Assembly (NCBI GenBank): GCA_947627935.1
Contig: CANQXY010000004.1
Coordinates: 1,536-65,535 of the forward strand
Direction: 5' to 3'
Length of the DNA: 64,000 nt
From: an uncultured Clostridia bacterium
GTDB taxonomy: Bacteria; Bacillota; Clostridia; TANB77; CAG-508
Positions 23,099-37,020 of this stretch are shown here, in pieces. The notes beneath the pieces are model-generated. The model was given only the letters and a program-made list of their open reading frames with translations, was not told the origin of the DNA and did no database searches. The translations under genes were made by a program, and so were the position numbers. Each line of letters opens with the position of its first letter. The stretch's first letter is position 1.

Positions 23099-24397
23099 TT
23101 AGTTTTCAACTTCTCTCATTTGCTTTATCATTAAATCTCCAAATACTGCATAACCTTCTTCAGGATTATTAAGTAAAACATGTGTTACTGCTCCAACGAA
23201 TTTACCATTTTGTATTATTGGACTTCCACTCATTCCTTGTATAATTCCTCCTGTTTTTTGTAAAAGTTTTGGATCTGTTACTTTTATAAGCATACTTTTG
23301 TTATCATAATTGTTATTAATATATATTTTTTCAATTTCAATTTCATATTCTTCTACATTCTGATTATCTAAACTACACAAAATAGTAGCTTTTCCCATTT
23401 TAATTTCTTCCCTATATGCAACTTCCATTTCTTTATTTTTATCAATATTAATGCTAGACAAATTATCTACTCTTCCATATATACCAAAATTTGTATTTTT
23501 ATATATTTGACCTATATTTTTACTATTTTCTATTGTTCCTTGAATTTTACCAGTATTCCCTTTTTCTCCTTTTTTTATTGATACAACTCTTGTTGTAACA
23601 AATTCACCAGATGCTATATTTAACAATTTATCTGTATCTATATCTGTTATTCCATGTCCTAATGCTCCAAACATTTTAGTTTCTGGCTCATAAAAAGTAA
23701 CTGTTCCAACTCCTGCTGCACTATCTCTTACCCATAATCCTAATTTATATTCATTTTCTGCTGTTTGAGTAGGTGTCATACTACATTTTTCTGTTTGTCC
23801 GTCTCTTACATATTCAATATCTATTTCTTTTCCATTTGATTTATTTACCATATCAATTAAATCAGATGTACAAGTAATTGCTTTGTCTTCTATTTCTATA
23901 ATCATATCTCCTTCTTCTATTCCAGAATTCTCATATGGTTTATATTTATTATTATCCATTCCTTCTATTTCTGACATTCCAACAACTAAAACTCCGCTTG
24001 TATATAATTTTACACCTGCTATATCTCCTACTGGAATAACTTTTGTTTTTGGAATTACACTTACATTAACATCTTTTATAAAAAACTTTTCAAATAAATT
24101 TACACTTATAGTTGTAGTTCCAACTTCATCTATTTTTTGATTTCCTATATTGCTAGATGTTAGTACTGTATTATAATTATTTTTTTGTTTTATATTCATC
24201 CCTAAAATAGTATTTATATTTAAGTTTTCACCTTCAAAAACTATTAAATTATCAGGAATATAACTTATAACTAATGTATAAATATATATAATCATTAAAA
24301 TAATAATTAAACTTAATCTTCTTATAACTTTCAATTTTCTTCCACCTTTAATAAATTCTTTTATTATTATTCCATTTTTATATATTTTTTTATACAA
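23099..24397 (-). CDS. spoIVB: SpoIVB peptidase (S55), stage IV sporulation
   Basis: 432 aa with an N-terminal TM, a PDZ-like region, and the catalytic serine context GMSGSPI. Confidence 0.88.
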   Translation of the reverse strand: MYKKIYKNGIIIKEFIKGGRKLKVIRRLSLIIILMIIYIYTLVISYIPDNLIVFEGENLNINTILGMNIKQKNNYNTVLTSSNIGNQKIDEVGTTTISVNLFEKFFIKDVNVSVIPKTKVIPVGDIAGVKLYTSGVLVVGMSEIEGMDNNKYKPYENSGIEEGDMIIEIEDKAITCTSDLIDMVNKSNGKEIDIEYVRDGQTEKCSMTPTQTAENEYKLGLWVRDSAAGVGTVTFYEPETKMFGALGHGITDIDTDKLLNIASGEFVTTRVVSIKKGEKGNTGKIQGTIENSKNIGQIYKNTNFGIYGRVDNLSSINIDKNKEMEVAYREEIKMGKATILCSLDNQNVEEYEIEIEKIYINNNYDNKSMLIKVTDPKLLQKTGGIIQGMSGSPIIQNGKFVGAVTHVLLNNPEEGYAVFGDLMIKQMREVEN

Positions 24398-24428
24398 AAA
24401 AATCTGATTTTTTAAAATCAGATTTTTA
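24396..24428 (-). terminator. Hairpin terminator at the end of the filament operon
   Basis: AAATCTGATTTT/AAAATCAGATTT, overlapping the stop codon of the 24426 gene. Confidence 0.6.
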
Positions 24429-26036
24429 ATTATTTATATAATTATCATAATTTACTCTATACATACCATACCTTTCTCTTCCAAGCGCAGTATAATATGC
24501 TTTTGCTAGATCTGGTTTATCAGATAAATAATCATAAATACTTGTATAACTTTCAACTGAAGTTTGATTTACAATACTTGAATATGAACCTAATTCATCA
24601 TGTGGATAACAATAATAATTCTCATCATTAATACGATATAATTTTTTCTCAAAATCAACATTAAAATATCCTATTAAATCCTCTTTATCATTTAATCCTT
24701 TTTCATTTACTCTGCTATATTGATCTCCATTTACTATAAATATAGAATCTTCTGACACTACTTCTTGTGTTTTATCATTTGTTATAACTGCATATCCATT
24801 ATACATTTTTCCGCCTATTGCTAGTCCTTGTAAAAAGCTTATTAAAGATGGATGATGTATTATTCTATACCAATCTGTTTCTGATAAATTTGGCATCTGA
24901 AATTCATTATTGCTATTTGAATAATCATTAAAATTTGCTATTGCTATTGATAAATTCTTTTGTATTGCATATCTTATTACCGCAATTCTATGTTCATTAA
25001 AATTAGAATCTTCATCTTCTATGCTTTTACCATCTTGTTTTTTAAATATTAAAGTATTTCCATATAATCCATTAACTGATTTTCCATCACTATCCGTTAT
25101 AGATTCTCCATTTTCATTTTTAGCATCAGAATATTTAAGATCTCCTAAATTGTCTCTTACCCAATCAGTAAATTCTTTAGCTTTTTTATAGTAATTTATT
25201 GCACTATCATTATCATCATTAAAATAATCATTTCTATATTTTTCTGCTAGGTTATTAGATAAATACATTTTTTCACCATTAACAACAGAAAATATTTTTT
25301 CATCATTTTCTAAATAATACTTTACACCATTTAATTGAACATATGGATATATTGCAGTCTTTTTTGATTCATCATCATCAATTATAACTCTCTCTTGAAT
25401 ATTTTCTTTTTCAATTTCTACATTTCTGTATTTAACAATATCATTTGTTATGTCAATATTATCTAATAAATATCCAGATTTATTTACATAGTTTTCTCCA
25501 ACTTTTCCTTGAACTGTTATATAATTATCTAATGTATATGTAATTACTACATCTATATTTCCTTTTATGTATCTACAAGAATAGTATACATATGGTTTTA
25601 GTCCTTGTACAGTCTGTCCATTTTGATATGTACTATTATTATATAAAGTTATATCTTCTCCTAAATTATTAGTATATGGTGAATATATATAATATCCATC
25701 ATATAGTGTATATACTAGTGCTGGTACATAGTTTTTTATTGTATCAGCATTATATCCACTTAATCCAAAGCTATTTGCTACAGAATCAAAAAATACATTT
25801 GCTGACGCTTTTATATCTCTCATTTTTGATGATGCAACATCAGAAGATGTATTTGAAAGAGTATTTATTTGAAATGCCTTAACTGCATCATATGTTGAAT
25901 TAACTAATTTTGAATCATATGAAGTTTGTAAATTTAATGTTTTTATTTGATTTCTTGTATATGCAGATAATACTATAGATATTGGTAGCATTATAACTAT
26001 AAAAATTATTGCTAAATTCTGTAGTTTCATAAGCAA
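24426..26036 (-). CDS. Large filament-associated protein (536 aa) with an N-terminal hydrophobic anchor; possible minor subunit or tip protein
   Basis: N-terminus MLMKLQNLAIIFIVIMLPISIVLSAY. It is the last gene of the operon. No family recognised. Confidence 0.45.
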   Translation of the reverse strand: MLMKLQNLAIIFIVIMLPISIVLSAYTRNQIKTLNLQTSYDSKLVNSTYDAVKAFQINTLSNTSSDVASSKMRDIKASANVFFDSVANSFGLSGYNADTIKNYVPALVYTLYDGYYIYSPYTNNLGEDITLYNNSTYQNGQTVQGLKPYVYYSCRYIKGNIDVVITYTLDNYITVQGKVGENYVNKSGYLLDNIDITNDIVKYRNVEIEKENIQERVIIDDDESKKTAIYPYVQLNGVKYYLENDEKIFSVVNGEKMYLSNNLAEKYRNDYFNDDNDSAINYYKKAKEFTDWVRDNLGDLKYSDAKNENGESITDSDGKSVNGLYGNTLIFKKQDGKSIEDEDSNFNEHRIAVIRYAIQKNLSIAIANFNDYSNSNNEFQMPNLSETDWYRIIHHPSLISFLQGLAIGGKMYNGYAVITNDKTQEVVSEDSIFIVNGDQYSRVNEKGLNDKEDLIGYFNVDFEKKLYRINDENYYCYPHDELGSYSSIVNQTSVESYTSIYDYLSDKPDLAKAYYTALGRERYGMYRVNYDNYINN

Positions 26037-26062: not shown

Positions 26063-26093
26063 CAAATAGCTTGTAATTTAATTACAAGCTATT
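26063..26093 (-). terminator. Intra-operon stem-loop (partial terminator or processing site)
   Basis: AAATAGCTTGTAA (26063-26075) pairs with TTACAAGCTATTT (26081-26093). The U-tract is weak. Confidence 0.4.
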
Positions 26094-26112
26094 TCATTTA
26101 TAATTACTAAAA

Positions 26113-26634
26113 TTAATTTCCGTTTGTTGTTACCATTCCTGAAGCATCCGCTGTTATTTGATATGAATTATTTCCTGTTACTTTATATAGGAAATTTTTT
26201 AATTGTTGTGAAATTGTTGTATTTGTATTTTTTACACTTACTGAAATAGTATCTCCCTCTTTTAATGTATATACATGGTCTTTTTCTAGCACATCTAGAA
26301 TTTGAGTAGTATAAACATCATAAGATTGATTTTCACCTATTTTATCTTTTGAAACCTTATCTGATTTTTTAGCTATGTTTTCATCTAGTATTTTTGCTTT
26401 TAATTCTACATCATAAGCATTTCCTGTTGCTGAAATCTCCTCTATAAATTTGCCATAATTTTCTTCTGTTAATTTACCTGTTTTCTTTATGTTGTCAACA
26501 AATTCACTAGTTGCTGTTTGTACTGTTAATTGTGATACATCATCACTTGTATCTGATAGTGTCATTAGTGGGAAAACGAACATTAATATTGCTGCTAAAA
26601 TTATTGCAATTACTGTTATTGTAGAATTTTCCAT
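26113..26634 (-). CDS. Pilin-like protein (173 aa), N-terminus MENSTITVIAIILAAILMFVFPL
   Basis: Short polar leader plus one hydrophobic helix, in the filament operon. Confidence 0.45.
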   Translation of the reverse strand: MENSTITVIAIILAAILMFVFPLMTLSDTSDDVSQLTVQTATSEFVDNIKKTGKLTEENYGKFIEEISATGNAYDVELKAKILDENIAKKSDKVSKDKIGENQSYDVYTTQILDVLEKDHVYTLKEGDTISVSVKNTNTTISQQLKNFLYKVTGNNSYQITADASGMVTTNGN

Positions 26635-26682
26635 TTTATTACCTCCTTTTACTTAAGATGTAAAATCAACATCCTTTTATTT

Positions 26683-27279
26683 TTAAATTTCTGTATATGT
26701 TATAACTCTCTTTTCTGTTTTATTAATATTTGATATAGTTTCACTTTCTTGCTCTTCTAAATTATTAATATCTTCAATTTTGTCTTCTATATAATATATA
26801 CCGAGTTCTTCTTTGAATTTCTTCCCTTTTATTGTATCATAAAATACATTATTATGCAAGTTTTGTGCATTAGGAAAGTTGTTTTCAAAATTTCCATTTA
26901 AAATACCATTAATAAATAGAGTAGCTTTATCTTGATTTCCTATTGCTTCTTGCTCTAAATCTATCTCATTTGTTTCTTCAAAATTCCCAGATACTTTTCT
27001 TTTATATATAATTAATGGGTCCCCATTTTCTTTGTAAAATCTTACTACATAATTTTCTTTATATGCTCTATATAGTGTTGGAACTATTGTTTCTGCTCCA
27101 ACTACTCTTTTAGTATCTCCTATTGAAACATATGTATAATCATATGTTTTATCAGTTGATTCAATTATCATTTGTGATGTTTGTCTAGCTAATGAAAAAG
27201 ATGACATACCTATTGATAGTGCTAGTACAAATATTAATACAGCAAAAGCCATAATTAATGCTTCACTTGCATTTTCCAT
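26683..27279 (-). CDS. Pilin-like protein (198 aa), N-terminus MENASEALIMAFAVLIFVLALSIG
   Basis: Member of the MENAS(K/E)AL family. Confidence 0.45.
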   Translation of the reverse strand: MENASEALIMAFAVLIFVLALSIGMSSFSLARQTSQMIIESTDKTYDYTYVSIGDTKRVVGAETIVPTLYRAYKENYVVRFYKENGDPLIIYKRKVSGNFEETNEIDLEQEAIGNQDKATLFINGILNGNFENNFPNAQNLHNNVFYDTIKGKKFKEELGIYYIEDKIEDINNLEEQESETISNINKTEKRVITYTEI

Positions 27280-27323
27280 AATACATCATCCTTTCTAATT
27301 TTTATAAATTATTTTATGTATTG

Positions 27324-27755
27324 TTATTCTGTTATAGTTACACTACTTACTAAACCTGAAGTATAGTTGCATTTAACTTTATATACTTTAGATGTTTTTG
27401 CTCTAACACTTATTTGATCATTACTTCCGTTTTCGCCACCTAATGCTATTACCTCATCATTTACACCTTTAGCTGTAGTAGATAATAATGTTACTTTTCT
27501 ATTTGCTGCTATATTTAATTCATCTGAATTACTTGTTATTATTTGTTGTAAAAGTGCATTTACATTTGCTCCTCTAACAGACTCACCTTGATATTGTTCA
27601 AATTTAGCATTAAATGTTTCTTTTTCCATATCACTCATTGATGTACTATTAATTACTTCTGATGCCTGTCTCCATATAACAATTCCAAGTGAAATTATTA
27701 ATATTGATAATAATATAGCTCCTGCTATAATTAATGCTTTTGATGCGTTTTCCAT
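27324..27755 (-). CDS. Pilin-like protein, candidate major subunit, copy 2 (143 aa)
   Basis: N-terminus MENASKALIIAGAILLSILIISLG. The first 87 aa are identical to the 27775-28209 product, and the C-terminal third diverges. Confidence 0.5.
   Translation of the reverse strand: MENASKALIIAGAILLSILIISLGIVIWRQASEVINSTSMSDMEKETFNAKFEQYQGESVRGANVNALLQQIITSNSDELNIAANRKVTLLSTTAKGVNDEVIALGGENGSNDQISVRAKTSKVYKVKCNYTSGLVSSVTITE
27492..27755. repeat. Copy A of a tandem direct repeat of about 264 bp (5' part of the pilin-like gene)
   Basis: Aligned by eye to 27946-28209: 3 mismatches, all silent at the protein level. Confidence 0.9.
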
Positions 27756-27774
27756 AAAATCAATCCTTTCTATT

Positions 27775-28209
27775 TTATTTCTTTTCTATATTTTCTATTG
27801 TTACTTTATTTACTACACCAGCACTATAACCACATGTAACTTTATAAACTTTAGATGTTTGTGCTCTGTTAGCTATTGCATCTAGATTAGTACCTGATAA
27901 TGATATTGCTGTATTGCCAACTCCAGTAGCACCTCCATCTATTGATACTTTTCTATTTGCTGCTATATTTAATTCATCTGAATTACTTGTTATTATTTGT
28001 TGTAAAAGTGCATTTACATTTGCTCCTCTAACAGACTCACCTTGATATTGTTCAAATTTAGCATTAAATGTTTCTTTTTCCATATCACTCATTGATGTAC
28101 TATTAATTACTTCTGATGCTTGCCTCCATATAACAATTCCAAGTGAAATTATTAATATTGATAATAATATAGCTCCTGCTATAATCAATGCTTTTGATGC
28201 GTTTTCCAT
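27775..28209 (-). CDS. Pilin-like protein, candidate major subunit, copy 1 (144 aa)
   Basis: Same N-terminal 87 aa as copy 2. The segment after NRKV is variable, then the conserved TSKVYKV.C.Y..G.V..VTI follows. Confidence 0.5.
   Translation of the reverse strand: MENASKALIIAGAILLSILIISLGIVIWRQASEVINSTSMSDMEKETFNAKFEQYQGESVRGANVNALLQQIITSNSDELNIAANRKVSIDGGATGVGNTAISLSGTNLDAIANRAQTSKVYKVTCGYSAGVVNKVTIENIEKK
27946..28209. repeat. Copy B of the tandem direct repeat of about 264 bp
   Basis: See 27492-27755. Confidence 0.9.
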
Positions 28210-28275
28210 AAAATTTTCCTCCTTAATTTTAACTTTTGTTTATTTCACGATAGTTTCCTATCAAATTTAATAACA

Positions 28276-28707
28276 TTATTTAGATATTTGTGATATATGT
28301 ATCTTTTTTATTCTGTTAGTCTTCTTATGATATTCTATTTTATCACATTTAAACTTTATTGTGCTATAATTTTTTACGAAATTATCAATTCCGCCGTTAT
28401 AAATAGTCTCCATATCATATGTAGTATCATTATCTATAATATATATTTCTATTTTTATTGAATTTTCTTCATCTTCTACATATTTACCATCTTGATTTTT
28501 TTGTACATTGTAATTTATATTATTATCTATAGCTTTATTTATTAATGTTGCTATATCTATACCTTGTAGTTCTTTCTCATAATAGTATTCAAATTCTAGA
28601 TTATCTTTTTTTACTTTATTATATGATGATTTATAATTAATATAAACCATAGATATTGATACTACTATAATTAAAACTAATACTAAAAAAATTATTATTT
28701 TTTTCAT
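28276..28707 (-). CDS. Membrane-anchored paralog of the pilin-like family (143 aa) lacking the MENASKAL leader
   Basis: N-terminus MKKIIIFLVLVLIIVVSISMVY. It shares the family C-terminal motif KFKCDKIEYHKKTNRIKKIHI. Confidence 0.4.
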   Translation of the reverse strand: MKKIIIFLVLVLIIVVSISMVYINYKSSYNKVKKDNLEFEYYYEKELQGIDIATLINKAIDNNINYNVQKNQDGKYVEDEENSIKIEIYIIDNDTTYDMETIYNGGIDNFVKNYSTIKFKCDKIEYHKKTNRIKKIHISQISK

Positions 28708-28769
28708 TTTATTTCCTTATTAAATTTAACATATTAGATTTTATTTTTCAACTTAAAATATCATAAGTT

Positions 28770-29231
28770 TTAATTCTTTTTAAATATTACTTGATATACT
28801 CTTCCTGTTTTGGAACTAATCTTAACTTGTGAGCATTTATAAGTATTCTTCGTTACACTTGCTTGATTTTCTTCTAATTTTTCATTTTGTTTATCTAAAC
28901 TTAGTGTTTCGAAGTTGTTATCACTATCTAGTTTTACATTTATGTAAAAAGTACTATCAATTCCTGCAGATGATGTATCTAAATTATATTTATCATTATT
29001 TTCTTTTGCATAATTTGCAGCAGTTATTACATCATATATCGTTAAATCGCTTCTTCCTTCATATACTGTAAATTTTGAATTGAATTCTGAAAGTATTTTT
29101 TGTTCATTTTCTTTTTGTATATCTGCTGCCGAAGATCCAAATGTTGCAATTAAATATGCTGCTAATGATAGTATTAAAACTGCCATTAATACTCCTGCTG
29201 CCATAATTAAAGCTTTTGATGCATTTTCCAT
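28770..29231 (-). CDS. Pilin-like protein (153 aa), N-terminus MENASKALIMAAGVLMAVLILSLA
   Basis: Carries the family motifs FNSKFTVYEG and C-terminal YKCSQVKISSKTGRVYQVIF. Confidence 0.45.
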   Translation of the reverse strand: MENASKALIMAAGVLMAVLILSLAAYLIATFGSSAADIQKENEQKILSEFNSKFTVYEGRSDLTIYDVITAANYAKENNDKYNLDTSSAGIDSTFYINVKLDSDNNFETLSLDKQNEKLEENQASVTKNTYKCSQVKISSKTGRVYQVIFKKN

Positions 29232-29242
29232 AACACACCTCT

Positions 29243-29983
29243 TTATTCAAATGTTCCTGTAAATTCAAATTTCATTTTTATTATTCTACCTGTTGTTTTA
29301 TCATATTCTGTAGATGTACATCTAAAATGAGCTCTTTTAAGTTGTACATATTCATAATATTTATATATATCTTCCCTTATTGTACTTCCTTCTGCAATTT
29401 TATCAAAACTATTTATTTCATTTCTTGCTAATGATAATTTGTTATAACTATCTACTGCATTATCTTTTTTTTCTTGTATACTATCATTAGATATAAATAT
29501 TTTTGTAATTGATTTTGATAAATTTTCTAAACTGTTTTCACTATATTTACTAATAATTTCATCTAAATCTTTTTTTAATCCACTTCTAAAAGTACTATTG
29601 TTCGTTTTTTCTGTATATGTTTTTTTTGTTATCAATTTAGGATTTTCTCCATCTGCTGTAAATCCTTTTAAGTCTCCTAAATTTATTGTTACTTCTATAG
29701 GTTCATAACCTACATTTAATCCTTCATTTCCTATATTAGATTTTCTATCATTGTAATTTGCAACTTTGTTTAATAGTGAAAATAATTCTGTTCCTCTTAC
29801 ATCTTCTCTATTATATGCTTCATATTCTAGATTAAATTTAACTATTTCTTCTTCACTTGCTACACTACCTTCATTAGAATAAAATATTCCAATTCTATTA
29901 AACATCATTACTAATAGTGTAACAGTTAAAACAGCGATTAACATTCCTCCAGCCATTAACAAAGCTTTTGATGCATTTTCCAT
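29243..29983 (-). CDS. Pilin-like protein (246 aa), N-terminus MENASKALLMAGGMLIAVLTVTLL
   Basis: Carries the family motifs FNLEYEAYN..VRG and C-terminal FRCTSTEYDKTTGRIIKMKF. Confidence 0.45.
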   Translation of the reverse strand: MENASKALLMAGGMLIAVLTVTLLVMMFNRIGIFYSNEGSVASEEEIVKFNLEYEAYNREDVRGTELFSLLNKVANYNDRKSNIGNEGLNVGYEPIEVTINLGDLKGFTADGENPKLITKKTYTEKTNNSTFRSGLKKDLDEIISKYSENSLENLSKSITKIFISNDSIQEKKDNAVDSYNKLSLARNEINSFDKIAEGSTIREDIYKYYEYVQLKRAHFRCTSTEYDKTTGRIIKMKFEFTGTFE

Positions 29984-29999: not shown

Positions 30000-32078
30000 T
30001 TATACTGTTAAATTTTGAAATGTATTAGACATTGCAGTTAATCCTATAAATACTAATGGTATAATTAAATATCCTACAAATAGACATACCATTGGTGCAA
30101 ATCCTATAGCTTTTCCTATCATACCCTTTTTTTGTATTAATCTATCATTTGATTCTTTACGTTTAGCTTGATAATAATCTCTTTCTGAATCTAATTCATC
30201 AAATGCATCTCTAATTGGTATTTTTTCAACTGCTGCTTGTAAACTTTCAATTATACGTATAAATTGTGGATATGATACATCATTTTTTAATTCTTCTAAT
30301 GCTTCCCACGCTCCAGCTTCATAGTTGTTAACACATTTGCTAATAGGTTCTTTGAATATATTTGAATATCTTTCAAGCCATTCTAATATGATTTCAACAC
30401 TAACTCTTTCTATCCTCATAAGCATAAGTATAATTGTTTGGAACTGCATTACTTCATCTTCCATTTCAAGTTGTCTCATTTTTAATTGGAATTTTAATAT
30501 CCAAATTGGTCCCATATATGCAACTAATGCAAATACAATTGCTAATAATAATTCAAACCATTGCATATATTCACTATTTACTATTTTTAATTTTTTAAAC
30601 ACCCTTTCAGATGCTGTTTTTATTTCTTCATCAGTTGAATCTTGATAATATTTTGAATATTTCATTGCATGTTGTATATCTTCAACTGTAGTATCCATTT
30701 TTCCTTTAAACTTATCTAAAAATACATTGTCTTTTTCTGTTAATTCATTAGCATTTTTTAAATCTCTTTCAGACAGTCCTCCTATTATATCATAATCAGT
30801 AGTAGGTTCTTCATAAACATAATTTACTGCAATCCTATGTAATTGTGCAAAAACAACTATTGAAGTTAGTAATGTAACTATGGCTAATGCAATTCTATTT
30901 ACATATAACCATTCCATTTTTAGTTTTGATGCAGAATCTTTAAGTAAATTTTGTACTTTTCTATAATCTTTTGTACCTTTTTTTGGTATAAATAAATCTA
31001 CTATTTTCTTTATTATAGGTTTTCTGTATAATTTAGCCTGCCATGGATTTTCAGATCTTGTATCAATTGAAGTTGATCCATTATCTTTTAACTTTCTAGT
31101 AAGCATGTATGCTACAACTGTTATTATCATCATTAATATCTGTACAATCATTCCTGATTTGCCTTGGTAAAAACTTTGTGTAAAGCTGAAATTTGATATA
31201 GCCCAATTTTTTAATGGTTCTAATAATAATATTGGAACTATTGATATTACTGACAAACTTTGGAATACATAGTCTAATTTATCTCTTTTTAAAATTTCAA
31301 GTTGCATTTCTTGTGTTATATTATTAACATTTTTTAAATATAATGAAGCTCCATCTATTTTTCTATCTCCAAATTCTTTTGTTAAATATGATATTCCTGC
31401 AAATTCTTTTAAGAAACTATTTGGTGCAACATCATAATATTTTTCAAGTTCTGTTTCTGGTTCATTTGATATTAAAACTTCGTATATCTTTTCACCTTGT
31501 CTTGATACATCCATTTCGTCGTCTTGAGATACTTGATATATAGCCTCTTCTACCATATTAAATTCATGATATGCATGTCTTATTTCTGAAAAAAATTCTA
31601 TTTGTTGTTTCAATAAATTATTATCTTTTTTATCTACTAATCCATCTATATATGTATCTATCATAAATAATTCAAATATCAAGATAATTCCCATTAATAA
31701 CATATTTGAATGTGTTATTACTATAGTAAAAATTACTAGTGGTGTTAATATTAATAAAGTTTTTGTTAATATTTTAGCTGCATCTCTTCTTGTTATATAT
31801 TCATCATCTACATTTATTATTTCCAATCTTCTTCTAAGTTTTAATACATATCTTTTTAAAATTGGTATTTTTAAATATGTTAAATATAATTTTTGAAATA
31901 GAACTTCTGAAGAATATTTATTTGATTTTGTTCCTTGTTGTAATTGAGCTATTTGTTTATATTCAGAGTCTTGCATTTTCTTTCTTAATAAATAATATGC
32001 AATGATTATTATAGCAAATAGTCCTACTGTTCCACCCATTATATAAAATAAAATTTCATTTGATATCAATAATAACAC
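30000..32078 (-). CDS. Polytopic membrane platform protein, apparently a fused TadB/TadC (two T2SS-F-like halves)
   Basis: 692 aa with clusters of TM helices separated by cytoplasmic helical regions. The C-terminal region resembles the T2SSF domain. The true start may be the TTG at 32069 (GGAGG RBS) rather than the GTG at 32078. Confidence 0.5.
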   Translation of the reverse strand: MLLLISNEILFYIMGGTVGLFAIIIIAYYLLRKKMQDSEYKQIAQLQQGTKSNKYSSEVLFQKLYLTYLKIPILKRYVLKLRRRLEIINVDDEYITRRDAAKILTKTLLILTPLVIFTIVITHSNMLLMGIILIFELFMIDTYIDGLVDKKDNNLLKQQIEFFSEIRHAYHEFNMVEEAIYQVSQDDEMDVSRQGEKIYEVLISNEPETELEKYYDVAPNSFLKEFAGISYLTKEFGDRKIDGASLYLKNVNNITQEMQLEILKRDKLDYVFQSLSVISIVPILLLEPLKNWAISNFSFTQSFYQGKSGMIVQILMMIITVVAYMLTRKLKDNGSTSIDTRSENPWQAKLYRKPIIKKIVDLFIPKKGTKDYRKVQNLLKDSASKLKMEWLYVNRIALAIVTLLTSIVVFAQLHRIAVNYVYEEPTTDYDIIGGLSERDLKNANELTEKDNVFLDKFKGKMDTTVEDIQHAMKYSKYYQDSTDEEIKTASERVFKKLKIVNSEYMQWFELLLAIVFALVAYMGPIWILKFQLKMRQLEMEDEVMQFQTIILMLMRIERVSVEIILEWLERYSNIFKEPISKCVNNYEAGAWEALEELKNDVSYPQFIRIIESLQAAVEKIPIRDAFDELDSERDYYQAKRKESNDRLIQKKGMIGKAIGFAPMVCLFVGYLIIPLVFIGLTAMSNTFQNLTV

Positions 32079-32095: not shown

Positions 32096-34042
32096 TTAAA
32101 CTGTCTTAGGTTTTCTTCCTCTTCTCTTTTTTTCTTCTGCTCCTACTGTAACTGTTTCGTTTGATTTTCCCCAATATTTTTGAATAAATTTGTCAAATTC
32201 TTCTGCATCACTTTCATCCATATTGTTTCTCATTTCTCTAATATTTTTATCTGATATTTTATTTGTAATTACATATTCTCCATTTACATATTCTAAAATA
32301 TTTCTATATGTATATAATTGTCTTTCTGTTGTTTTTGTAAAATAATGTGTTGCATTATCAAAGAATTTATCAAATTTACCTTCTAAAGTTTTCTCTTTTC
32401 TATGATCAAAAGTATATTCATTTTTTTGTTCTACTGGAATACATTCTGTTACTCTTTCTATGTATCTTCTTCCTCTAAAGTCTTTAACTAAATGTATATC
32501 AAAATTTAATACTTGTACAACTTGTTCTTCTGCTGTTCTTTCATCTTTAAACACTCCTGCTCTTAACATTGAGTTACGAAGAGCTGTTACTAAATCTGGG
32601 AATGTTTTAGCATGGTGAGTAAATAATGTGAACTTTGATGCAACTTGTGCTGATTGTATCATCCAAGATGCAACAGGGTCTGTTGCAACCTCACCTATAA
32701 TGTTAACAGAACCATCTGTTTTCTTTTGAACGTCCAAACAATCTTGTCCTGAAACTGTTTCTGTTTCACGCATTGATAAAATATTTCTTGTTGGATATAT
32801 TTTTCTTAAGTGTAACTCAAATGCTGTTTCTGTAATACGAAGGTTCATTGTTTCATAAATGTTTTCTATCATTGCCATAAGCATTGTTGTTTTACCACAA
32901 CCTTGCTCACCAGTAAGTGATATAATTCTTGCACCTTTTACTAAGAATTTTAGTAAATTTATTGCATCTTCTTTTCCAGGGAATAATACTATTTGCTCTA
33001 ATGTAGCACGTTTAACGTCAAATTTTCTTACGAAAAATGCCCATGTTTCTGACATACTTGGTCTTACAACAACAACACGTGATCCATCTTTCATTTCATT
33101 TATTTTATAACCATTTGTATCTGATAATTGTCCTGGATTGTTATATTTATATATATTTTGACATACTCTCTTAAGTTCTGCTTCTGTTCCAAATGATAAA
33201 AATGCTAAACGTATTGATTTACCTTGGAACATTATCCAAATACTATCACATGCTCTAGGTACTTTATGTTCTGTTATTTGTTCTAAATAATCTCCATCTG
33301 TTTGTGACACTTGGCTTAAGAATGATTCTGGAAGTCCAGATACACCACCAGAAACACCATCTATGTTCATATCTCTTATTTCATCTATTGCACTATATCC
33401 TTTATAGTGTTGATATATTCTTTGTACTAATATACTTAATTTATCTTGAAATGATAATACTATATTTTCAGTTTCATATATCTCGTTTATTTCATCTTCT
33501 GTTATAACATATGATGGTTTTGTTTCACCTTCGACATATTTTAATGCTGCTAAATTATATTTTTTTATCATTTCTGTTAATGCTTCATAACCAAACTCTT
33601 TTTTATACATATATATTAATATGTCAAATTTATCTTGAGCAGTTAAAAGTGATGGAATATCAAATGGTATTGATTTTGAAATATTTACTTCATCTACTCC
33701 ATATTCTTGTTCTAATAAATCTGATATAAGTTCTTTAACATATTTTTTGTCATTTACATCTCCATATGTACAACCTTTTAATGCTTTCTTTAGTTCATAT
33801 TTTTTATTTTTTCTTCTTTTTAATTCTTCTTCTGAAAGTCCTATATCATATAAATTAACTTTTGTTATTTCATCTAATCTTTTTTTAACAAATTGTGTCA
33901 TCATTTGTAATGTATAAGTTTGATCATCTACTTCTACTGTTTCTTCTACAGGTGCTTCATTTTTATTTTTTATATATCTCATTACTGCAAATATAGCTAA
34001 ACATATAATTATTAACATTAATATAATATTAGTTATAGTCAT
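32096..34042 (-). CDS. CpaF/TadA-VirB11 family secretion ATPase with an unusual N-terminal TM anchor (648 aa)
   Basis: Walker A GEQGCGKTT; DGSRVVVVRP..AFFVRKF (CpaF-like); Walker B region GSVNIIGEV; His box FTHHAKT. The N-terminus MTITNIILMLIIICLAIFAV is hydrophobic. Confidence 0.7.
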   Translation of the reverse strand: MTITNIILMLIIICLAIFAVMRYIKNKNEAPVEETVEVDDQTYTLQMMTQFVKKRLDEITKVNLYDIGLSEEELKRRKNKKYELKKALKGCTYGDVNDKKYVKELISDLLEQEYGVDEVNISKSIPFDIPSLLTAQDKFDILIYMYKKEFGYEALTEMIKKYNLAALKYVEGETKPSYVITEDEINEIYETENIVLSFQDKLSILVQRIYQHYKGYSAIDEIRDMNIDGVSGGVSGLPESFLSQVSQTDGDYLEQITEHKVPRACDSIWIMFQGKSIRLAFLSFGTEAELKRVCQNIYKYNNPGQLSDTNGYKINEMKDGSRVVVVRPSMSETWAFFVRKFDVKRATLEQIVLFPGKEDAINLLKFLVKGARIISLTGEQGCGKTTMLMAMIENIYETMNLRITETAFELHLRKIYPTRNILSMRETETVSGQDCLDVQKKTDGSVNIIGEVATDPVASWMIQSAQVASKFTLFTHHAKTFPDLVTALRNSMLRAGVFKDERTAEEQVVQVLNFDIHLVKDFRGRRYIERVTECIPVEQKNEYTFDHRKEKTLEGKFDKFFDNATHYFTKTTERQLYTYRNILEYVNGEYVITNKISDKNIREMRNNMDESDAEEFDKFIQKYWGKSNETVTVGAEEKKRRGRKPKTV

Positions 34043-34056: not shown

Positions 34057-34893
34057 TTATCTTCTTTGTTGTAATATTTGTAACCTATATAAAATGTTTT
34101 CAGATAATCTATTTACTTCACTTATAAAAAATGAATTTCTTTCATCTTCTATTTTTCTAAATTTTAAAAACAAATCTGCTACTTTTCCTTCCTCTGCTGC
34201 TTCAAAATATTGAGTGTTATATGGTAAAGTTAGAACTTGATTTCTTTCTCCTAAATATCTTGTTATATTTTTTGAAGTATATTTTGAAAATTTATCATAT
34301 CTTCCTATCAATAATAATACTTTAGGATCTTTAAATAATGGATTTTTTGTTTTTATATCAAGGAAATTGTTTATTGCTCTTAATCTTTGTGATAATGTTG
34401 CAACTACCAAATCTGACATTTTTATTATTTCATCTTGCAATGGTATTGGCATTACAGTTGCTAAATCTACAAATACAAAATCATAATATGTGTTTGCTAA
34501 TTCTATAATTTGTATATAACTTTCTGCTATTTGTTTATATTCACTTTCTTGTCCTTCAAATCCTAATAACAATTCTAATCTATCTTTGAATATTATTTTT
34601 GTATAATCTGTTATTAAATTTGCTGTAAATTTATTACTTCTTACAATTCTATCTAATCCTTCTATTCCACTTTGTATAGACGAATTAGCATTTTGTCCAA
34701 ATAATCCTATATTTTTTGTTGTTTTTTTATTTTGTTCAAAAAAACAATTTTCTATAGTTTCATCATTAAGACTTGTAGATATTAATAAAATCTTTTTATT
34801 ATGTTCTATTGCCATATGTGTTGCCACAGCGACAGCAGATAGTGTCTTTCCTACATGTTCTTTATTATTACCCCAAAATGTAACAATTGCCAT
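34057..34893 (-). CDS. ParA/MinD-family ATPase (TadZ/CpaE-like)
   Basis: 278 aa with a deviant Walker A, FWGNNKEHVGKT, and the Walker B-like YDFVFVDLA. Confidence 0.55.
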   Translation of the reverse strand: MAIVTFWGNNKEHVGKTLSAVAVATHMAIEHNKKILLISTSLNDETIENCFFEQNKKTTKNIGLFGQNANSSIQSGIEGLDRIVRSNKFTANLITDYTKIIFKDRLELLLGFEGQESEYKQIAESYIQIIELANTYYDFVFVDLATVMPIPLQDEIIKMSDLVVATLSQRLRAINNFLDIKTKNPLFKDPKVLLLIGRYDKFSKYTSKNITRYLGERNQVLTLPYNTQYFEAAEEGKVADLFLKFRKIEDERNSFFISEVNRLSENILYRLQILQQRR

Positions 34894-34897: not shown

Positions 34898-35593
34898 TTA
34901 TGCTCCTTTTTCTATAGTTTTTATAGCCTTTCTAATATCTGTATTTTTAACTTCTTTATAAATGCCTTCTACAATATAAGATAAATTTTCTTTATATGCA
35001 GAAGTTAATTTTTTGAATTTGATTTTTTCAACTCTCTGATTTTCTATAATAGCACTAAAATCTTCCATTGTTATAGTAAAATAAATTTTATATTCATTCC
35101 AACTTATATTGCAATCTTTAGATAGAAAATCTAAATATTGTTCTTCTTCTGGTAACATATTTTTTGAAAACAATATTTTTGTAACCTTGATTTGTTCTTC
35201 AAGTTCACTTAATACTTCTAATCCTTTTTTTAAATCATAAACATCAAAAGATGTAACAAAATAATTTATATCTGAATTTTCTAATTCAAATCTTTTAAAC
35301 ATATCATATGAATCAGTATCTACAAACACTATATCATATGATTGATTTAAGTCATCAATTCCTAAGTATTGTCTTAAATGTTCAAAGCTACTAAATCCTA
35401 TAGCTACATCTATATTTTCAAATTCTGTTACATAGTTTGCAGTTGGAGTTATAGCTGGCACTACATATTTGGCTTTTTGCTTTTGTGTACAATCTACTAT
35501 TAGAATTCTTTTACCTAAAACTGTTAAAATCTTTGCTACATATAACATAAGGTCAATTTTATCATAAGCTCCAATAAATCCTATTTTTTGCAT
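34898..35593 (-). CDS. Degenerate ParA/MinD-like protein lacking a P-loop
   Basis: 231 aa. It has the same fold signature (IGFIGAYDKIDL.., YDIVFVDTDS), but the GKT/GKS of Walker A is absent. Confidence 0.45.
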   Translation of the reverse strand: MQKIGFIGAYDKIDLMLYVAKILTVLGKRILIVDCTQKQKAKYVVPAITPTANYVTEFENIDVAIGFSSFEHLRQYLGIDDLNQSYDIVFVDTDSYDMFKRFELENSDINYFVTSFDVYDLKKGLEVLSELEEQIKVTKILFSKNMLPEEEQYLDFLSKDCNISWNEYKIYFTITMEDFSAIIENQRVEKIKFKKLTSAYKENLSYIVEGIYKEVKNTDIRKAIKTIEKGA

Positions 35594-35645: not shown

Positions 35646-36551
35646 TTAATATCCTGCTAATGTATCTAAATATTGTTTTCTTGATTCTTGTGAATTTGCT
35701 GTACTATTTGATATTCCTTCTTCTACGTTTGTTTGAGCTTGTTCTGATCCGGCAATTGCAGGAGTTAAATGTTCATTTCTTAGCTGTGATAAATTATTTT
35801 GGCCATATCTTGCATTTAATGCATTCATAGCTTCTTTTAATATGTTTGGATCACTTTTTAATAATGCAACTACTTCTGCACTTACAGGATATGTAGGTGT
35901 AGCAGCTTTTTGCATTCCTGGGTCTGTATATTTTGTAGCATATATTTTTGATCCATTAATTTTAAATGCATCATAAATTGCATTTGAAATTGATAATATT
36001 TCATCTTCACTTAAATTAATTCTTATTGTGTCTGATGAAAGAGATCCTCCTAAATCTGGTATTTCAACTTTTTTCTTAGATACAACTATATAATTTTGTC
36101 CTGATGGAAGCATTAATCTAATATCAACATAATCTCCATCTTCTAAGTCTATTGGTAAGACTATCATATTATATTCTTCTATTCTTGTATCATCATTTAT
36201 TTTATTATCTGACTCAGTTATTAAATCTGATGTTATTATAGTATTTTTATTCATATCAACTTTTGCAATTACATTTTCTTCTCCAGTTAAGCTAATTGCA
36301 TTAGCTGGTACTGCATCAGAAGGAAGTGTTTTTGCAGTAATTGTACTTAAATCTACTGTTTCTCCAGATTTAACATCTTTATTTAATACATATACTGTTT
36401 TACTAGCCGCTTTTTCTTCTTGTTCTTTCTTTTTAATATTCATTAATTGTAAAAATAATAACGCTATTATTATACCTGTTATAACTAACGTTAATAACAT
36501 TCCTAACAAAAATGAATTTCTTGATTTTCTTTGCATTGGATTTGTTGCCAT
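35646..36551 (-). CDS. CpaB/RcpC-like pilus assembly protein
   Basis: 301 aa with an N-terminal TM, a SAF-like segment (LNKDVKSGETV) and a GDYVDIRL motif, as in CpaB. Strong AAGGGAGG RBS. Confidence 0.55.
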   Translation of the reverse strand: MATNPMQRKSRNSFLLGMLLTLVITGIIIALLFLQLMNIKKKEQEEKAASKTVYVLNKDVKSGETVDLSTITAKTLPSDAVPANAISLTGEENVIAKVDMNKNTIITSDLITESDNKINDDTRIEEYNMIVLPIDLEDGDYVDIRLMLPSGQNYIVVSKKKVEIPDLGGSLSSDTIRINLSEDEILSISNAIYDAFKINGSKIYATKYTDPGMQKAATPTYPVSAEVVALLKSDPNILKEAMNALNARYGQNNLSQLRNEHLTPAIAGSEQAQTNVEEGISNSTANSQESRKQYLDTLAGY

Positions 36552-36675
36552 GACAAATTCCTCCCTTAATTTATAATTTATATTATTTTTTTACAAAATA
36601 TTCATCTATTTTATTTTAACTTAAATCAAGTTGAAAATCAATAATTTATAGCGTTTGTAACCTAAAATTAATATC

Positions 36676-36697
36676 ATTGTAATATTATTGTAATATT
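36676..36697. repeat. Tandem 11-mer ATTGTAATATT x2 in the divergent intergenic region between the filament operon and the SASP gene
   Basis: Read directly at 36676-36686 and 36687-36697. Confidence 0.9.
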
Positions 36698-36822
36698 ATT
36701 TTTTTATTCCTTATTTTTTGAAAAATTTACCTGTTTATTTTAAAAAAAATTGCTAATTCTATTATTAGAAAAAGCAAAAGTTTTTTCTATAAATGTTATA
36801 TATAGCAGGAGGTGAAAAAACA

Positions 36823-37020
36823 ATGGCAAACACAAGTAACAGAAAATTAGTTCCAGAAGCTATGTCTGCATTAGACAAATTCAAATATGAAGTTGCTTCA
36901 GAAGTTGGTGTTAACTTAAAAGACGGATATAATGGTGACATTTCAGCTAAAGACGCTGGTAAAATAGGTGGACAAATGGTTAAAAAAATGATCGAACAAG
37001 CTGAAAGAAACATGAAATAG
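36823..37020 (+). CDS. Small acid-soluble spore protein, alpha/beta type
   Basis: 65 aa: MANTSNRKLVPEAMSALDKFKYEVASEVGV..GGQMVKKMIEQAE. AGGAGGTG RBS. Confidence 0.9.
   Translation: MANTSNRKLVPEAMSALDKFKYEVASEVGVNLKDGYNGDISAKDAGKIGGQMVKKMIEQAERNMK

What the first reader, a model, noticed from the sequence alone, without database searches (positions are those of the whole stretch)
26113..29983. A paralogous family of putative filament subunits with shared N-terminal, post-helix and C-terminal motifs
Five ORFs begin MENAS(K/E)AL(I/L)(I/M)A followed by about 20 hydrophobic residues, and a sixth begins MENSTITVIAII. After the helix several share F-N-x-(K/E)-(F/Y)-x2-Y-x-G..(V/L)xG..(V/L), as in TFNAKFEQYQGESVRGANV, EFNSKFTVYEGRSDL and KFNLEYEAYNREDVRG. 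Most end with (F/Y)(K/R)C-x5-8-(T/S)G(R/x)(I/V)xx(I/V)x(F/I), as in YKCSQVKISSKTGRVYQVIF, FRCTSTEYDKTTGRIIKMKF and YKVKCNYTSGLVSSVTI. The 28276-28707 product has the same C-terminal motif but an ordinary MKK anchor. This architecture, a conserved N-terminal helix with a variable globular domain and a conserved last strands, is what major and minor pilins look like. I do not recognise the sequence family.
Basis: seen in the sequence. Interest (0 to 1): 0.65.

Follow-up and report, generated by a model that had tools for sequence, protein, structure and literature searches.

The report
Putative pilins of a Tad-like pilus
These seven small genes are the putative filament subunits of a very divergent Tad-type pilus locus that was published in 2024 for the uncultured gut order TANB77, but they lack the standard pilin leader peptide and no filament has yet been shown.

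Summary
Five ORFs start MENAS(K/E)AL and a sixth starts MENSTITV. Orthologues in 80 other genomes keep these N-termini: the first 24 residues of the 144-aa type are almost invariant.

Profile comparison without the helix shows that four types (246, 153, MKK-143 and 144/143 aa) are true paralogues. The 198- and 173-aa proteins share only the N-terminus.

The genes lie in a strictly syntenic locus: CpaB-like SAF protein, two ParA-like proteins, a membrane-anchored CpaF-like ATPase (best PDB match CpaF, 5e-10), an 8-TM protein, the seven small proteins and a 536-aa anchored protein.

In gene order, sizes and predicted helices this matches the "pilus gene cluster" (genes 927-938) of Kim et al. 2024, Nat Commun 15:10726, who already called 932-938 pilin-like. 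So the finding is already known as a hypothesis.

That paper does not mention several points:
- The subunits have no canonical class III signal peptide. There is no Gly before residue 12, the 6-7-residue polar head is neutral or acidic, and an in-frame stop lies a few codons upstream.
- No prepilin peptidase gene was seen in the loci.
- No small protein has a Pfam or PDB relative.
- The system is not confined to TANB77. It also occurs in Paenibacillus, Lysinibacillus, Butyrivibrio and other Firmicutes, often on megaplasmids.

A filament remains unproven.

The parts
36591..36696 (-). Conserved upstream control region: tandem AATATTACAA repeats with an 11-bp period, -35 TTGATT (36641-36636), a 17-nt spacer, -10 TAAAAT (36618-36613), and an inverted repeat copy ATATTTTGTAA in the 5' UTR
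   Evidence: Same layout upstream of the first gene in about 60 orthologous loci. Window sequence. The scan lists the TTGATT/TAAAAT pair.
35646..36551 (-). CpaB-like protein: N-terminal TM helix plus SAF domain (301 aa)
   Evidence: Pfam SAF E=0.003. Orthologues carry SAF in precomputed Pfam hits or are named 'SAF domain-containing protein'. Kim et al. report structural homology to CpaB.
34898..35593 (-). First small ParA/TadZ-like protein (231 aa)
   Evidence: Position conserved in 69 of 80 loci. Pfam gave no significant hit. TadZ-like by structure according to Kim et al..
34057..34893 (-). Second ParA/CpaE-like protein (278 aa)
   Evidence: Pfam AAA_31 and CbiA at E about 1e-3. CpaE-like by structure according to Kim et al..
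32096..34042 (-). CpaF/TadA-family secretion ATPase (648 aa) with an N-terminal TM helix and a C-terminal extension
   Evidence: Pfam T2SSE 26.9 bits, above the cut-off. Best PDB matches are CpaF, 5e-10. NCBIfam best hit is the TadA-family ATPase. TM helix at residues 3-21.
30000..32078 (-). Polytopic membrane protein with 8 predicted TM segments (692 aa), the presumed assembly platform
   Evidence: TM prediction. 76 of 80 loci have it right after the ATPase. No Pfam or PDB match by HMM. The AlphaFold model is too poor to use. Kim et al. report TadC-like (first half) and TadB-like (second half) folds.
29243..29983 (-). Pilin-like protein, 246 aa (MENASKALLMAG...), head domain with an insertion
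   Evidence: Homologous ectodomain with the MKK-143 type, hhalign probability 98.6%.
28770..29231 (-). Pilin-like protein, 153 aa (MENASKALIMAA...)
28276..28707 (-). Paralogue of the same head domain with an ordinary MKK signal or anchor (143 aa)
   Evidence: hhalign 98.2-98.6% to the 153 and 246 types without the N-terminus. Kim et al. predict a signal peptide for the equivalent gene 934.
27775..28209 (-). Candidate major subunit, copy 1 (144 aa)
   Evidence: 7188 homologues, none with a Pfam domain. Invariant N-terminus and variable residues 85-120. AlphaFold pLDDT 80.
27324..27755 (-). Candidate major subunit, copy 2 (143 aa). The first 264 nt are 99% identical to copy 1, then the sequence diverges.
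   Evidence: The gene is present in 1-4 copies in other loci.
26683..27279 (-). Pilin-like protein, 198 aa (MENASEALIMAF...), related to the others only in the N-terminus and last strand
26113..26634 (-). Conserved minor-subunit candidate, 173 aa (MENSTITV...; near-invariant Pro22)
   Evidence: Found in all seven distant loci searched with the family HMMs at E 1e-17 to 1e-30. Sub-threshold DUF4320 hits in 17 of 41 orthologues.
26064..26094 (-). Terminator-like hairpin between the 173-aa and 536-aa genes
   Evidence: 14-pair stem followed by a T-rich tail.
24426..26036 (-). Large N-terminally anchored protein (536 aa; orthologues start MKLQ...), the equivalent of 'pilin 938'
   Evidence: Conserved in 70 of 80 loci and in the distant loci. 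No Pfam or PDB match. Kim et al. report partial TadE/PilV-like structure and TLR4-dependent dendritic-cell activation.

Best explanation
The seven small ORFs, together with the 536-aa protein, are the structural subunits of a highly divergent Tad-type (type IVc-like) type IV filament machine of a Gram-positive bacterium.

Shown:
- They form one conserved gene block with a CpaF-family ATPase, a polytopic membrane protein, two ParA-like proteins and a SAF/CpaB-like protein.
- Four of the small types are paralogues that share a head domain.
- Five small ORFs share a near-invariant N-terminal helix.

Inferred mechanism:
- Each subunit is inserted N-in/C-out and held in the membrane by its N-terminal helix.
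- The membrane-anchored ATPase hexamer turns the platform protein and lifts subunits out of the bilayer, so that the conserved helices pack into a filament core.
- The 144-aa type, which is multi-copy, has a hypervariable middle and has its own ribosome-binding site, forms the shaft.
- The 246, 153, 198, 173 and 536-aa proteins prime or cap the filament.
- The MKK-143 paralogue, which has the head domain but not the polymerisation helix, stays at the base or is secreted.

I think it most likely that the subunits are used as made, without removal of a leader. Glu2 near the free N-terminus would then play the charge-neutralising role of Glu5 in classical pilins. This last step is the least certain.
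For: - Synteny of the whole block in 70-77 of 80 loci.
- The ATPase's best PDB match is CpaF at 5e-10, and it passes the Pfam T2SSE cut-off.
- SAF and ParA-like hits.
- 8 TM segments in the downstream protein.
- Entropy of 0-0.14 bits over residues 1-24, against 2.3-2.6 bits with indels over residues 85-120, in the 144-aa family.
- Conserved Gly12 and Gly24, and Pro22 in the 173-aa type.
- Tandem copies that are 99% identical for 264 nt and then diverge.
- Paralogy of the head domains.
- Homologues of the 144, 173 and 536 types next to the same machinery in seven distant loci, and same-sized small genes in the same positions on four plasmid loci.
- True starts at Met-Glu-Asn.
- No Gly before residue 12, and N-terminal heads that are neutral or acidic across lineages.
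- No prepilin peptidase among the polytopic ORFs of the 64-kb window or in the annotated plasmid loci.
- Independent structure-based assignment of CpaB, TadZ, CpaE, TadA and TadC+TadB in PMC11680825.
Against: - No filament has been seen.
- No small protein matches any pilin family in Pfam, NCBIfam or PDB profiles.
- Foldseek with a pLDDT-80 model gives no hit better than E=0.5. The model has a helix break at residues 36-41.
- The platform protein shows no T2SSF signal in 35+54 family members scanned with Pfam, or in PDB HMM searches with profiles of 35 and 96 members. No internal repeat was detected.
- A small residue (Ala or Gly) directly before the hydrophobic stretch recurs across lineages. 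One metagenomic relative starts MLKKG-MEYIGE..., like a normal prepilin. Cleavage by an unlinked peptidase is therefore possible.
Confidence: 0.6

Rival explanations
1. They are true type IV pilins with a very short (5-8 residue) class III signal peptide. A prepilin peptidase encoded elsewhere in the genome cuts after the small residue that precedes the helix (Lys6-Ala7 | Leu8 in the window). As in archaeal pilins, there would be no Glu5.
For: An Ala or Gly immediately before the hydrophobic stretch recurs in the major-subunit type across lineages: SKA|L, QSA|L, VKA|I, TKA|I, STG|L, SEG|L, KKG|M. One relative has a textbook MLKKG leader. Prepilin peptidase genes are often unlinked to their substrates (general knowledge of type IV pili).
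Against: - The presumed leaders are neutral or acidic (MENASKA 0, MERESNDA -2, MENAVDA -2), not basic.
- Residues 1-5 (MENAS) are as invariant as the helix, which is unusual for a discarded leader.
- The 198-aa type has Asp or Glu at -2.
- The 173- and 536-aa types have no consistent small residue at that place.
- No A24 peptidase was found in the window or the loci.
Confidence: 0.25
2. They do not polymerise into an external pilus. They are bitopic membrane proteins that form a short pseudopilus or static wall-spanning assembly. The ATPase uses it to export or display another protein, such as the large DUF5704 or 536-aa proteins encoded next to it, or to support cell-cell contact for conjugation or type VII secretion.
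For: - No pilin fold was found.
- An MKK-anchored paralogue shares the same head domain.
- In Bacilli the locus is always followed by an SLH or 'stalk' domain protein and a DUF5704 protein of about 1100 aa.
- Some relatives sit beside conjugation-type genes (VirD4-like, NlpC/P60 hydrolases, topoisomerase) or beside EssC/WXG100 genes.
- PMC11217815 notes Tad genes always adjacent to T7SSg and T7SSh.
Against: The hypervariable, indel-rich middle and the copy-number variation of the 144-aa type suggest an abundant exposed surface. In TANB77 and in Paenibacillus agilis the locus is chromosomal, with no secretion substrate or conjugation genes nearby.
Confidence: 0.12
3. The locus builds a sporulation-specific structure, such as a spore appendage or a forespore channel. 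This is suggested by its position between a SASP gene and spoIVB.
For: SASP lies at 36793-37020, spoIVB at 23099-24397 and yqfC/yqfD-like genes upstream. spoIVB follows the locus in 47 of 80 loci.
Against: - The conserved promoter has a housekeeping-type -35/-10 pair preceded by a repeat array, with no conserved sporulation-sigma motif.
- Homologous loci in Paenibacillus, Lysinibacillus, Butyrivibrio and others lie in unrelated contexts, often on plasmids.
- The machinery is CpaF-type, not SpoIIIA-type.
Confidence: 0.03

Closest known systems
TANB77 'pilus gene cluster', genes 927-938 of HRGM_Genome_2725 (Kim et al. 2024, Nat Commun 15:10726, PMC11680825)
   Same: Same gene order, and matching sizes for most genes: 358/231/280/640/693/165/170/143/146/237/178/621 aa in the paper against 301/231/278/648/692/246/153/143/144(+143)/198/173/536 aa here. 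Same predicted helices: 1 in the ATPase, 8 in the platform, and a signal peptide on the 143-aa protein. Low G+C (24%). Uncultured gut Clostridia. I regard the window's locus as a member of this cluster.
   Different: The paper infers 'pilin-like' from context and topology only. It does not mention the shared N-terminal motif, the paralogy, the missing leader or peptidase, or the tandem mosaic copies. It calls the cluster exclusive to TANB77 among gut genomes, whereas I find homologous loci widely in Firmicutes. Taxon membership of the window could not be tested because no GTDB tool was available.
Tad/Flp (type IVc) pili, e.g. Caulobacter CpaF system
   Same: CpaF-family ATPase, a CpaB-like SAF protein, ParA-like TadZ/CpaE proteins, a membrane platform next to the ATPase, and a set of small N-terminally hydrophobic proteins, in Tad-like gene order.
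   Different: - No Flp pilin: the subunits are 140-250 aa with a folded head, not helices of about 50 aa with G/XXXXEY.
- No TadV/CpaA peptidase gene in the locus.
- No Pfam TadE, TadG or T2SSF signal.
- The platform is one fused 690-aa protein.
- The ATPase has an N-terminal TM helix and long extensions.
Archaeal class III signal peptide pilins (Epd/Aap type)
   Same: Subunits with a folded head, no Glu5 requirement, and a tolerated Ala at -1 with Lys at -2. The window's ...SKA|LII... would fit this. This comparison rests on my own knowledge of PibD/FlaK specificity and was not tested here.
   Different: The N-terminal heads here are neutral or acidic and invariant. No peptidase was found. 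No sequence or structure match was obtained.
'Tad pilus genes' noted beside T7SSg/T7SSh loci of Paenibacillus and Acetivibrio (Garrett et al. 2024, PMC11217815)
   Same: One relative of the platform protein (L089) lies between an EssC-like FtsK_SpoIIIE ATPase gene and a WXG100 gene, which fits that description.
   Different: I could not confirm that the loci in that paper are the same family. The window itself has no T7SS genes near the locus.

Membership tests
Type IV pilins (class III signal peptide proteins) | Short basic leader ending in Gly (rarely Ala) at -1, cut by an A24 prepilin peptidase | tested here: not met
   Translation starts at Met-Glu-Asn, with a stop 4-7 codons upstream and an SD-like motif at about 11 nt. 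There is no Gly before residue 12, and residue 12 is Ala or Phe in two of the paralogues. The polar head is neutral or acidic. An Ala7|Leu8 cut cannot be excluded.
Type IV pilins (class III signal peptide proteins) | Glu at position +5 of the mature protein | tested here: not met
   The acidic residue is at position 2 (or 3) of the primary product in 87-99% of orthologues of five types. It is absent in the Paenibacillus major type, MNNAQSAL.
Type IV pilins (class III signal peptide proteins) | Hydrophobic N-terminal helix of about 20-25 residues, conserved between major and minor subunits of one system | tested here: met
   TM segment at residues about 6-27 in all seven proteins. Shared MENAS.AL..A start in five of them. 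Entropy of 0-0.14 bits over residues 1-24.
Type IV pilins (class III signal peptide proteins) | Long alpha-1 helix whose C-terminal half packs on an antiparallel beta-sheet (pilin fold) | tested here: inconclusive
   The AlphaFold model (pLDDT 80) has H2-35, a break at 36-41, H42-53, two more helices and six strands. The best Foldseek PDB hit has E=0.5, to NTF2-like proteins, and no pilin is found.
Type IV pilins (class III signal peptide proteins) | Assembles into a helical filament | not testable with these tools
   Needs microscopy or biochemistry. No multimer prediction was available.
Tad (type IVc) pilus system | CpaF/TadA-family hexameric ATPase | tested here: met
   Best PDB hits are CpaF at 5e-10 over residues 269-538. 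Pfam T2SSE is above the cut-off. The Walker A motif GEQGCGKT is visible in the sequence.
Tad (type IVc) pilus system | TadB/TadC platform with T2SSF domains | tested here: inconclusive
   No T2SSF hit in 35 close and 54 distant family members. No PDB hit with two profiles. My AlphaFold model has pLDDT 52 and is unusable. Kim et al. report TadC/TadB-like halves by Foldseek.
Tad (type IVc) pilus system | Flp-type pilin with the G/XXXXEY processing motif | tested here: not met
   No Flp_Fap hit. The subunits are 143-246 aa and lack the motif.
Tad (type IVc) pilus system | TadV/CpaA prepilin peptidase in the locus or genome | tested here: inconclusive
   None among the polytopic ORFs of the 64-kb window: one 215-aa, 4-TM ORF has no family and the others are AgrB, a histidine kinase and a Na/Ca exchanger. 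None is annotated in the four plasmid loci. Whole genomes could not be scanned.
Tad (type IVc) pilus system | TadE/TadF/TadG-type minor pilins | tested here: not met
   No TadE or Tad hit for the 173- or 536-aa families. Only sub-threshold DUF4320 hits, in 17 of 41 sequences with a best E of 0.011. Kim et al. report partial TadE/PilV structural similarity for protein 938.
TANB77 pilus gene cluster (Kim et al. 2024) | Twelve conserved genes in the order CpaB, TadZ, CpaE, TadA, TadC/B fusion, then seven pilin-like genes, with the published sizes and helix predictions | tested here: met
   Searches compared with Table 1 of the paper.

The most novel reading that the evidence does not exclude
This would be a Firmicutes-wide branch of the type IV filament superfamily whose subunits carry no class III signal peptide and need no prepilin peptidase. 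The primary translation product (Met1-Glu2...) would itself be the polymerising form, so one of the supposedly universal core components of type IV filaments is dispensable. It occurs on chromosomes (TANB77, Paenibacillus) and on megaplasmids, some beside conjugation-type or type VII secretion genes. There it could serve as a contact or mating filament of Gram-positive bacteria.
Probability: 0.3. Interest if true: 0.8.

Novelty: already known. Interest (0 to 1): 0.45.

Why it matters
The cluster is already in the literature as a marker and possible effector of response to checkpoint immunotherapy. Protein 938, the equivalent of the 536-aa protein here, activates dendritic cells through TLR4. 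Whether it really builds a pilus, and what the exposed subunit is, therefore has practical weight.

For pilus biology the interest is narrower. The subunits do not look like any known prepilin. If they are assembled without processing, the accepted minimal parts list of type IV filaments (ATPase, platform, pilin, peptidase) would need revising.

TANB77 is uncultured, but close relatives of the system exist in culturable Paenibacillus, Lysinibacillus and Butyrivibrio strains. The question is therefore directly testable.

Tried and rejected
- **Family scans of the small proteins.** Pfam and NCBIfam scans of all seven small proteins and the 536-aa protein gave nothing significant. Scanning 41 orthologues of the 173-aa type gave only sub-threshold DUF4320 hits. 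Scanning 29 relatives of the 536-aa type gave nothing.
- **PDB sequence searches.** Single-sequence and profile searches for the 144-aa, 173-aa and 536-aa families and for the platform protein found no relatives.
- **Foldseek of the 144-aa model against the PDB.** No hit with E below 0.5.
- **AlphaFold of the platform protein.** pLDDT was 52, because only shallow alignments were allowed. The Foldseek output on that model is meaningless.
- **Internal duplication of the platform protein.** hhalign of the N-terminal against the C-terminal half was not significant, E=0.07-0.13. My visual impression of two T2SSF-like halves remains unproven by my own tests.
- **Sporulation structure.** Rejected on promoter and cross-taxon context.
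- **Cleavage after Gly12.** Rejected because position 12 is Ala or Phe in two of the paralogues and the remaining helix would be too short.
- **Literature searches.** Searches for the motif string and for leaderless pilins found nothing relevant. The relevant paper surfaced only through 'Paenibacillus CpaF pilus'.

Full report
**1. Observation**

The window has 24% G+C. On the minus strand between 29983 and 26113 there are seven consecutive small ORFs.
- Five begin MENAS(K/E)AL followed by a hydrophobic stretch. A sixth begins MENSTITVIAII. The one at 28276-28707 begins MKKIIIF.
- Each ORF is preceded by a Shine-Dalgarno-like sequence.

In 80 related loci fetched from other genomes the same families recur with the same N-termini. 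An in-frame stop lies a median of 4-7 codons upstream of the Met in every family. An SD-like motif lies about 11 nt upstream in about 90% of the MEN-type and 173-aa genes, and in about 60% of the MKK-143 and 536-aa genes. The proteins therefore truly start Met-Glu-Asn, and the shared N-terminus is not chance. In the 144-aa family, column entropy is 0.00 bits for residues 1-12 and 0.14 bits for residues 13-24. It rises to 2.3-2.6 bits, with indels, for residues 85-120.

**2. Which of the proteins are really paralogues**

I built ortholog alignments from the loci, removed the first 32 residues and compared the profiles.
- The 246, 153, MKK-143 and 144/143 types are related in their ectodomains (probability 88-98.6%). 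The 246-aa protein carries an insertion.
- The 198-aa, 173-aa and downstream 536-aa proteins show no detectable relation to them beyond the N-terminus.
- The C-terminal hairpin motif (F/Y-K-C ... T-G-R-I/V-x-x-I/V-x-F) is kept in orthologues of the 246, 153, MKK-143 and 144 types. The 198 type keeps only the last strand.
- The two adjacent 144/143 genes are 99% identical over their first 264 nt, differ almost completely over the next 85 nt or so, and are similar again at the end. Other loci carry 1-4 copies of this gene.

**3. Context**

Upstream on the same strand lie, in order:
- a TM-anchored SAF-domain protein (35646-36551);
- two small ParA-like proteins (34898-35593 and 34057-34893);
- a 648-aa ATPase with an N-terminal TM helix (32096-34042);
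- a 692-aa protein with eight predicted TM segments (30000-32078).

Downstream lie a 536-aa N-terminally anchored protein (24426-26036) and then spoIVB.

The ATPase passes the Pfam T2SSE cut-off, and its best PDB relatives are the CpaF structures at 5e-10. The order of all thirteen genes is kept in 70-77 of the 80 loci. It is also kept in a 1.39-Mb contig of another genome, where none of the locus genes has any Pfam hit on record.

All 80 loci come from uncultured Clostridia or 'Clostridium sp.' MAGs of animal and human guts. The 144-aa protein has 7188 homologues at E<=1e-3. None of the 120 listed carries a Pfam domain or an informative name.

**4. Structure and remote homology**

- An AlphaFold model of the 144-aa protein (pLDDT 80.5) has a helix over residues 2-35, a low-confidence break at 36-41, three more helices and six strands ending in the conserved hairpin.
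- Foldseek against the PDB finds nothing better than E=0.5, to NTF2-like proteins, and no pilin.
- Profile searches of the PDB with the 144-aa, 173-aa and 536-aa families find nothing.
- The 173-aa family gives only sub-threshold DUF4320 hits.
- The 692-aa membrane protein matches no Pfam family in 35 close or 54 distant members. It matches no PDB chain with two profiles. My model of it was too poor to use.
- This membrane protein belongs to a large family: 1240 clusters at 50% identity, nearly all about 670-700 aa.

**5. Literature**

A full-text search led to Kim et al., Nat Commun 2024;15:10726 (PMC11680825). They describe a 10-14-gene cluster conserved in 122 of 129 species of the uncultured order TANB77. 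Its Table 1 gives the sizes and assignments as follows:
- 358 aa: CpaB
- 231 aa: TadZ
- 280 aa: CpaE
- 640 aa: TadA/CpaF, with 1 TM helix
- 693 aa: 8 TM helices, first half TadC-like and second half TadB-like by structure
- 165, 170, 143 (signal peptide), 146, 237 and 178 aa: no homology found
- 621 aa: N-terminal quarter TadE/PilV-like by structure

In gene order, most sizes and predicted helices this is the locus in the window. The authors called proteins 932-938 'pilin-like' on the grounds of context, separate promoters and topology. They showed that recombinant 938 activates dendritic cells through TLR4 and improves anti-PD-1 response in mice.

The paper contains no mention of a peptidase, a leader, an N-terminal motif or paralogy. 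It describes the cluster as exclusive to TANB77 among gut genomes. No later paper in the library examines the pilus itself.

**6. What I can add**

(a) *The subunits are not canonical prepilins.*
- There is no Gly in the first 11 residues.
- The 6-7-residue polar head is neutral or acidic (MENASKA 0, MENAVDA -2).
- Residues 1-5 are as invariant as the helix.
- The acidic residue sits at position 2-3, not +5.

(b) *No prepilin peptidase gene was seen.* The polytopic ORFs of the window are AgrB, a histidine kinase, a Na/Ca exchanger, the platform protein, a 630-aa 7-TM ORF that I did not scan, and one unassigned 215-aa protein. None of the four annotated plasmid loci lists a peptidase.

(c) *The system is not confined to TANB77.* Distant relatives of the platform protein (23-37% identity) sit in the same gene block in:
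- the chromosome of Paenibacillus agilis;
- many Paenibacillus species, including P. vortex, P. dendritiformis, P. macerans and P. thiaminolyticus, where the major-type protein is mis-named 'ABC transporter permease';
- megaplasmids of Butyrivibrio proteoclasticus B316, Lysinibacillus sphaericus C3-41, Alkalihalophilus pseudofirmus OF4 and P. polymyxa M1, with further hits in Clostridium, Thermobacillus, Cytobacillus, Sporosarcina and Cohnella.

HMMs of the window's families find a 144-type and a 173-type protein in all seven distant loci searched, and a 536-type protein in five of them. The plasmid loci carry small genes of matching size in the same positions. The common set therefore appears to be four pilin-like genes. 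TANB77 has expanded the head-domain family.

In these relatives the N-termini are again short and unprocessed-looking: MNNAQSALKVAAG, MESPVVKAIIL, MDSVTKAIIFG, MERESNDALKIV, MDNVPSSAILAI. The post-helix motif (Y/F)-x-x-Y-(D/E/N)-(G/N)-x-x-(V/I)-x-G-(S/A)-x-V is the most conserved part of the head.

**7. The open point: processing**

Across lineages a small residue (Ala or Gly) directly precedes the hydrophobic stretch of the major type. One metagenomic relative begins MLKKG-MEYIGE, like a standard prepilin whose mature end would be Met-Glu. This can be read in two ways.
- The leader has been lost, and Met1-Glu2 of the TANB77 proteins corresponds to the mature end.
- A very short leader is still cut at [A/G]|[L/I/M] by an unlinked peptidase.

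The recurring small residue favours the second. I put about 0.3 on truly leaderless assembly and about 0.25 on short-leader processing.

**8. Mechanism proposed**

I propose a Tad-derived type IV filament machine of a monoderm cell.
- *Shown:* the gene block, the ATPase family, the paralogy, the helix conservation, and the variable middle and copy-number variation of the 144-aa type.
- *From the literature:* the fold assignments of the CpaB, TadZ/CpaE and TadC+TadB homologues.
- *Inferred:* N-in/C-out insertion of the subunits; extraction by the ATPase-platform pair; a helical core formed by the conserved N-terminal helices; the 144-aa type as shaft; the 173, 198, 536, 246 and 153 types as priming or tip subunits; and the MKK-143 paralogue as a non-polymerising base or secreted factor.

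Confidence that the proteins are subunits of an ATPase-driven filament or pseudopilus is about 0.6.

**9. Rivals**

- Short-leader true pilins: 0.25.
- A non-filamentous membrane or export complex: 0.12. In Bacilli the locus is always followed by an SLH or stalk-domain protein and a DUF5704 protein of about 1100 aa, and some relatives sit beside conjugation-type or T7SS genes. The latter fits a remark in PMC11217815.
- A sporulation structure: 0.03. It is contradicted by the conserved housekeeping-type promoter with an upstream repeat array and by the unrelated contexts in other taxa.

**10. Verdict**

- The pilin interpretation is partly supported. It rests on context, helix conservation and surface-like variability, but not on signal peptide, fold or family membership.
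- The finding is already known for TANB77 as a published hypothesis.

The residual interest lies in three things: the non-canonical N-terminus, the absence of a linked peptidase, and the wide distribution in culturable Firmicutes, which makes the question testable.

Noticed in passing
window 36591-36696 (minus strand), and the same place in about 60 loci (L002-L080): Upstream of the first gene of the locus there is a conserved array of 2-4 tandem AATATTACAA repeats with an 11-bp period. It is followed by -35 TTGATT, 17 nt, -10 TAAAAT, and an inverted copy (ATATTTTGTAA) in the 5' UTR. It looks like a transcription-factor binding array on a housekeeping-type promoter. The 9-mer itself is not rare in this AT-rich window; the evidence is its positional conservation.
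   Followed up: partly
window 46706-49702: An agr-like quorum-sensing set lies 10 kb from the locus: a LytTR response regulator (46706-47443), a GHKL histidine kinase with 7 TM segments (47427-48770) and AgrB (49091-49702). LytTR regulators bind direct repeats, so this is a candidate regulator of the repeat array. That link was not tested.
   Followed up: no
loci L004, L005, L007, L020, L021 and others (ATPase gene); window 32096-34042 is intact: In many orthologous loci the ATPase ORF is split at the same place (about residue 470) into two ORFs that overlap by 29 nt in a different frame. The C-terminal 190 residues or so are therefore a separate or frameshifted product. This could be a gene fission, a programmed frameshift or a recurrent assembly error.
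   Followed up: no
window 27324-28209: Two tandem major-subunit genes are 99% identical over their first 264 nt, then unrelated for about 85 nt, then similar again. The pattern suggests gene conversion of the 5' part or diversifying selection on an exposed loop region.
   Followed up: partly
L085 1-2413; L087 1058-2938 and 18706-20016; L091 (B. proteoclasticus pCY186) 1192-2968: Some distant relatives of the whole locus sit next to conjugation-type genes: a VirD4/TraG-like coupling protein, NlpC/P60 plus a cell-wall hydrolase, and a Toprim topoisomerase. These are on plasmids or ICE-like regions. This raises the idea of a contact filament linked to DNA transfer in Gram-positive bacteria.
   Followed up: partly
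L089 1-2821 and 20277-20660: Another relative lies between an EssC-like FtsK_SpoIIIE ATPase gene and a WXG100 gene. This fits the published remark that Tad genes always flank T7SSg and T7SSh loci (PMC11217815).
   Followed up: partly
L088 11099-15436; L089 15721-20235; L092 13580-17953; L093 12393-16951; L094 12647-16793: In the Bacilli-type loci and two metagenomic relatives, the four pilin-like genes are always followed by a gene for an SLH, 'stalk' or Cu_amine_oxidN1 domain protein and then a DUF5704 protein of about 1100 aa. This may be a cargo, adhesin or tip component. It is absent from the window.
   Followed up: no
P0391-P0528 (Paenibacillus homologues of the 144-aa type): The major-type protein is widely annotated 'ABC transporter permease' in RefSeq and UniRef. 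This looks like a propagated mis-annotation of a single-TM protein of about 155 aa.
   Followed up: no
window 26064-26094: A 14-bp-stem palindrome with a T-rich tail lies between the 173-aa and 536-aa genes. The large protein, the paper's immunostimulatory '938', may therefore be transcribed or attenuated separately.
   Followed up: no
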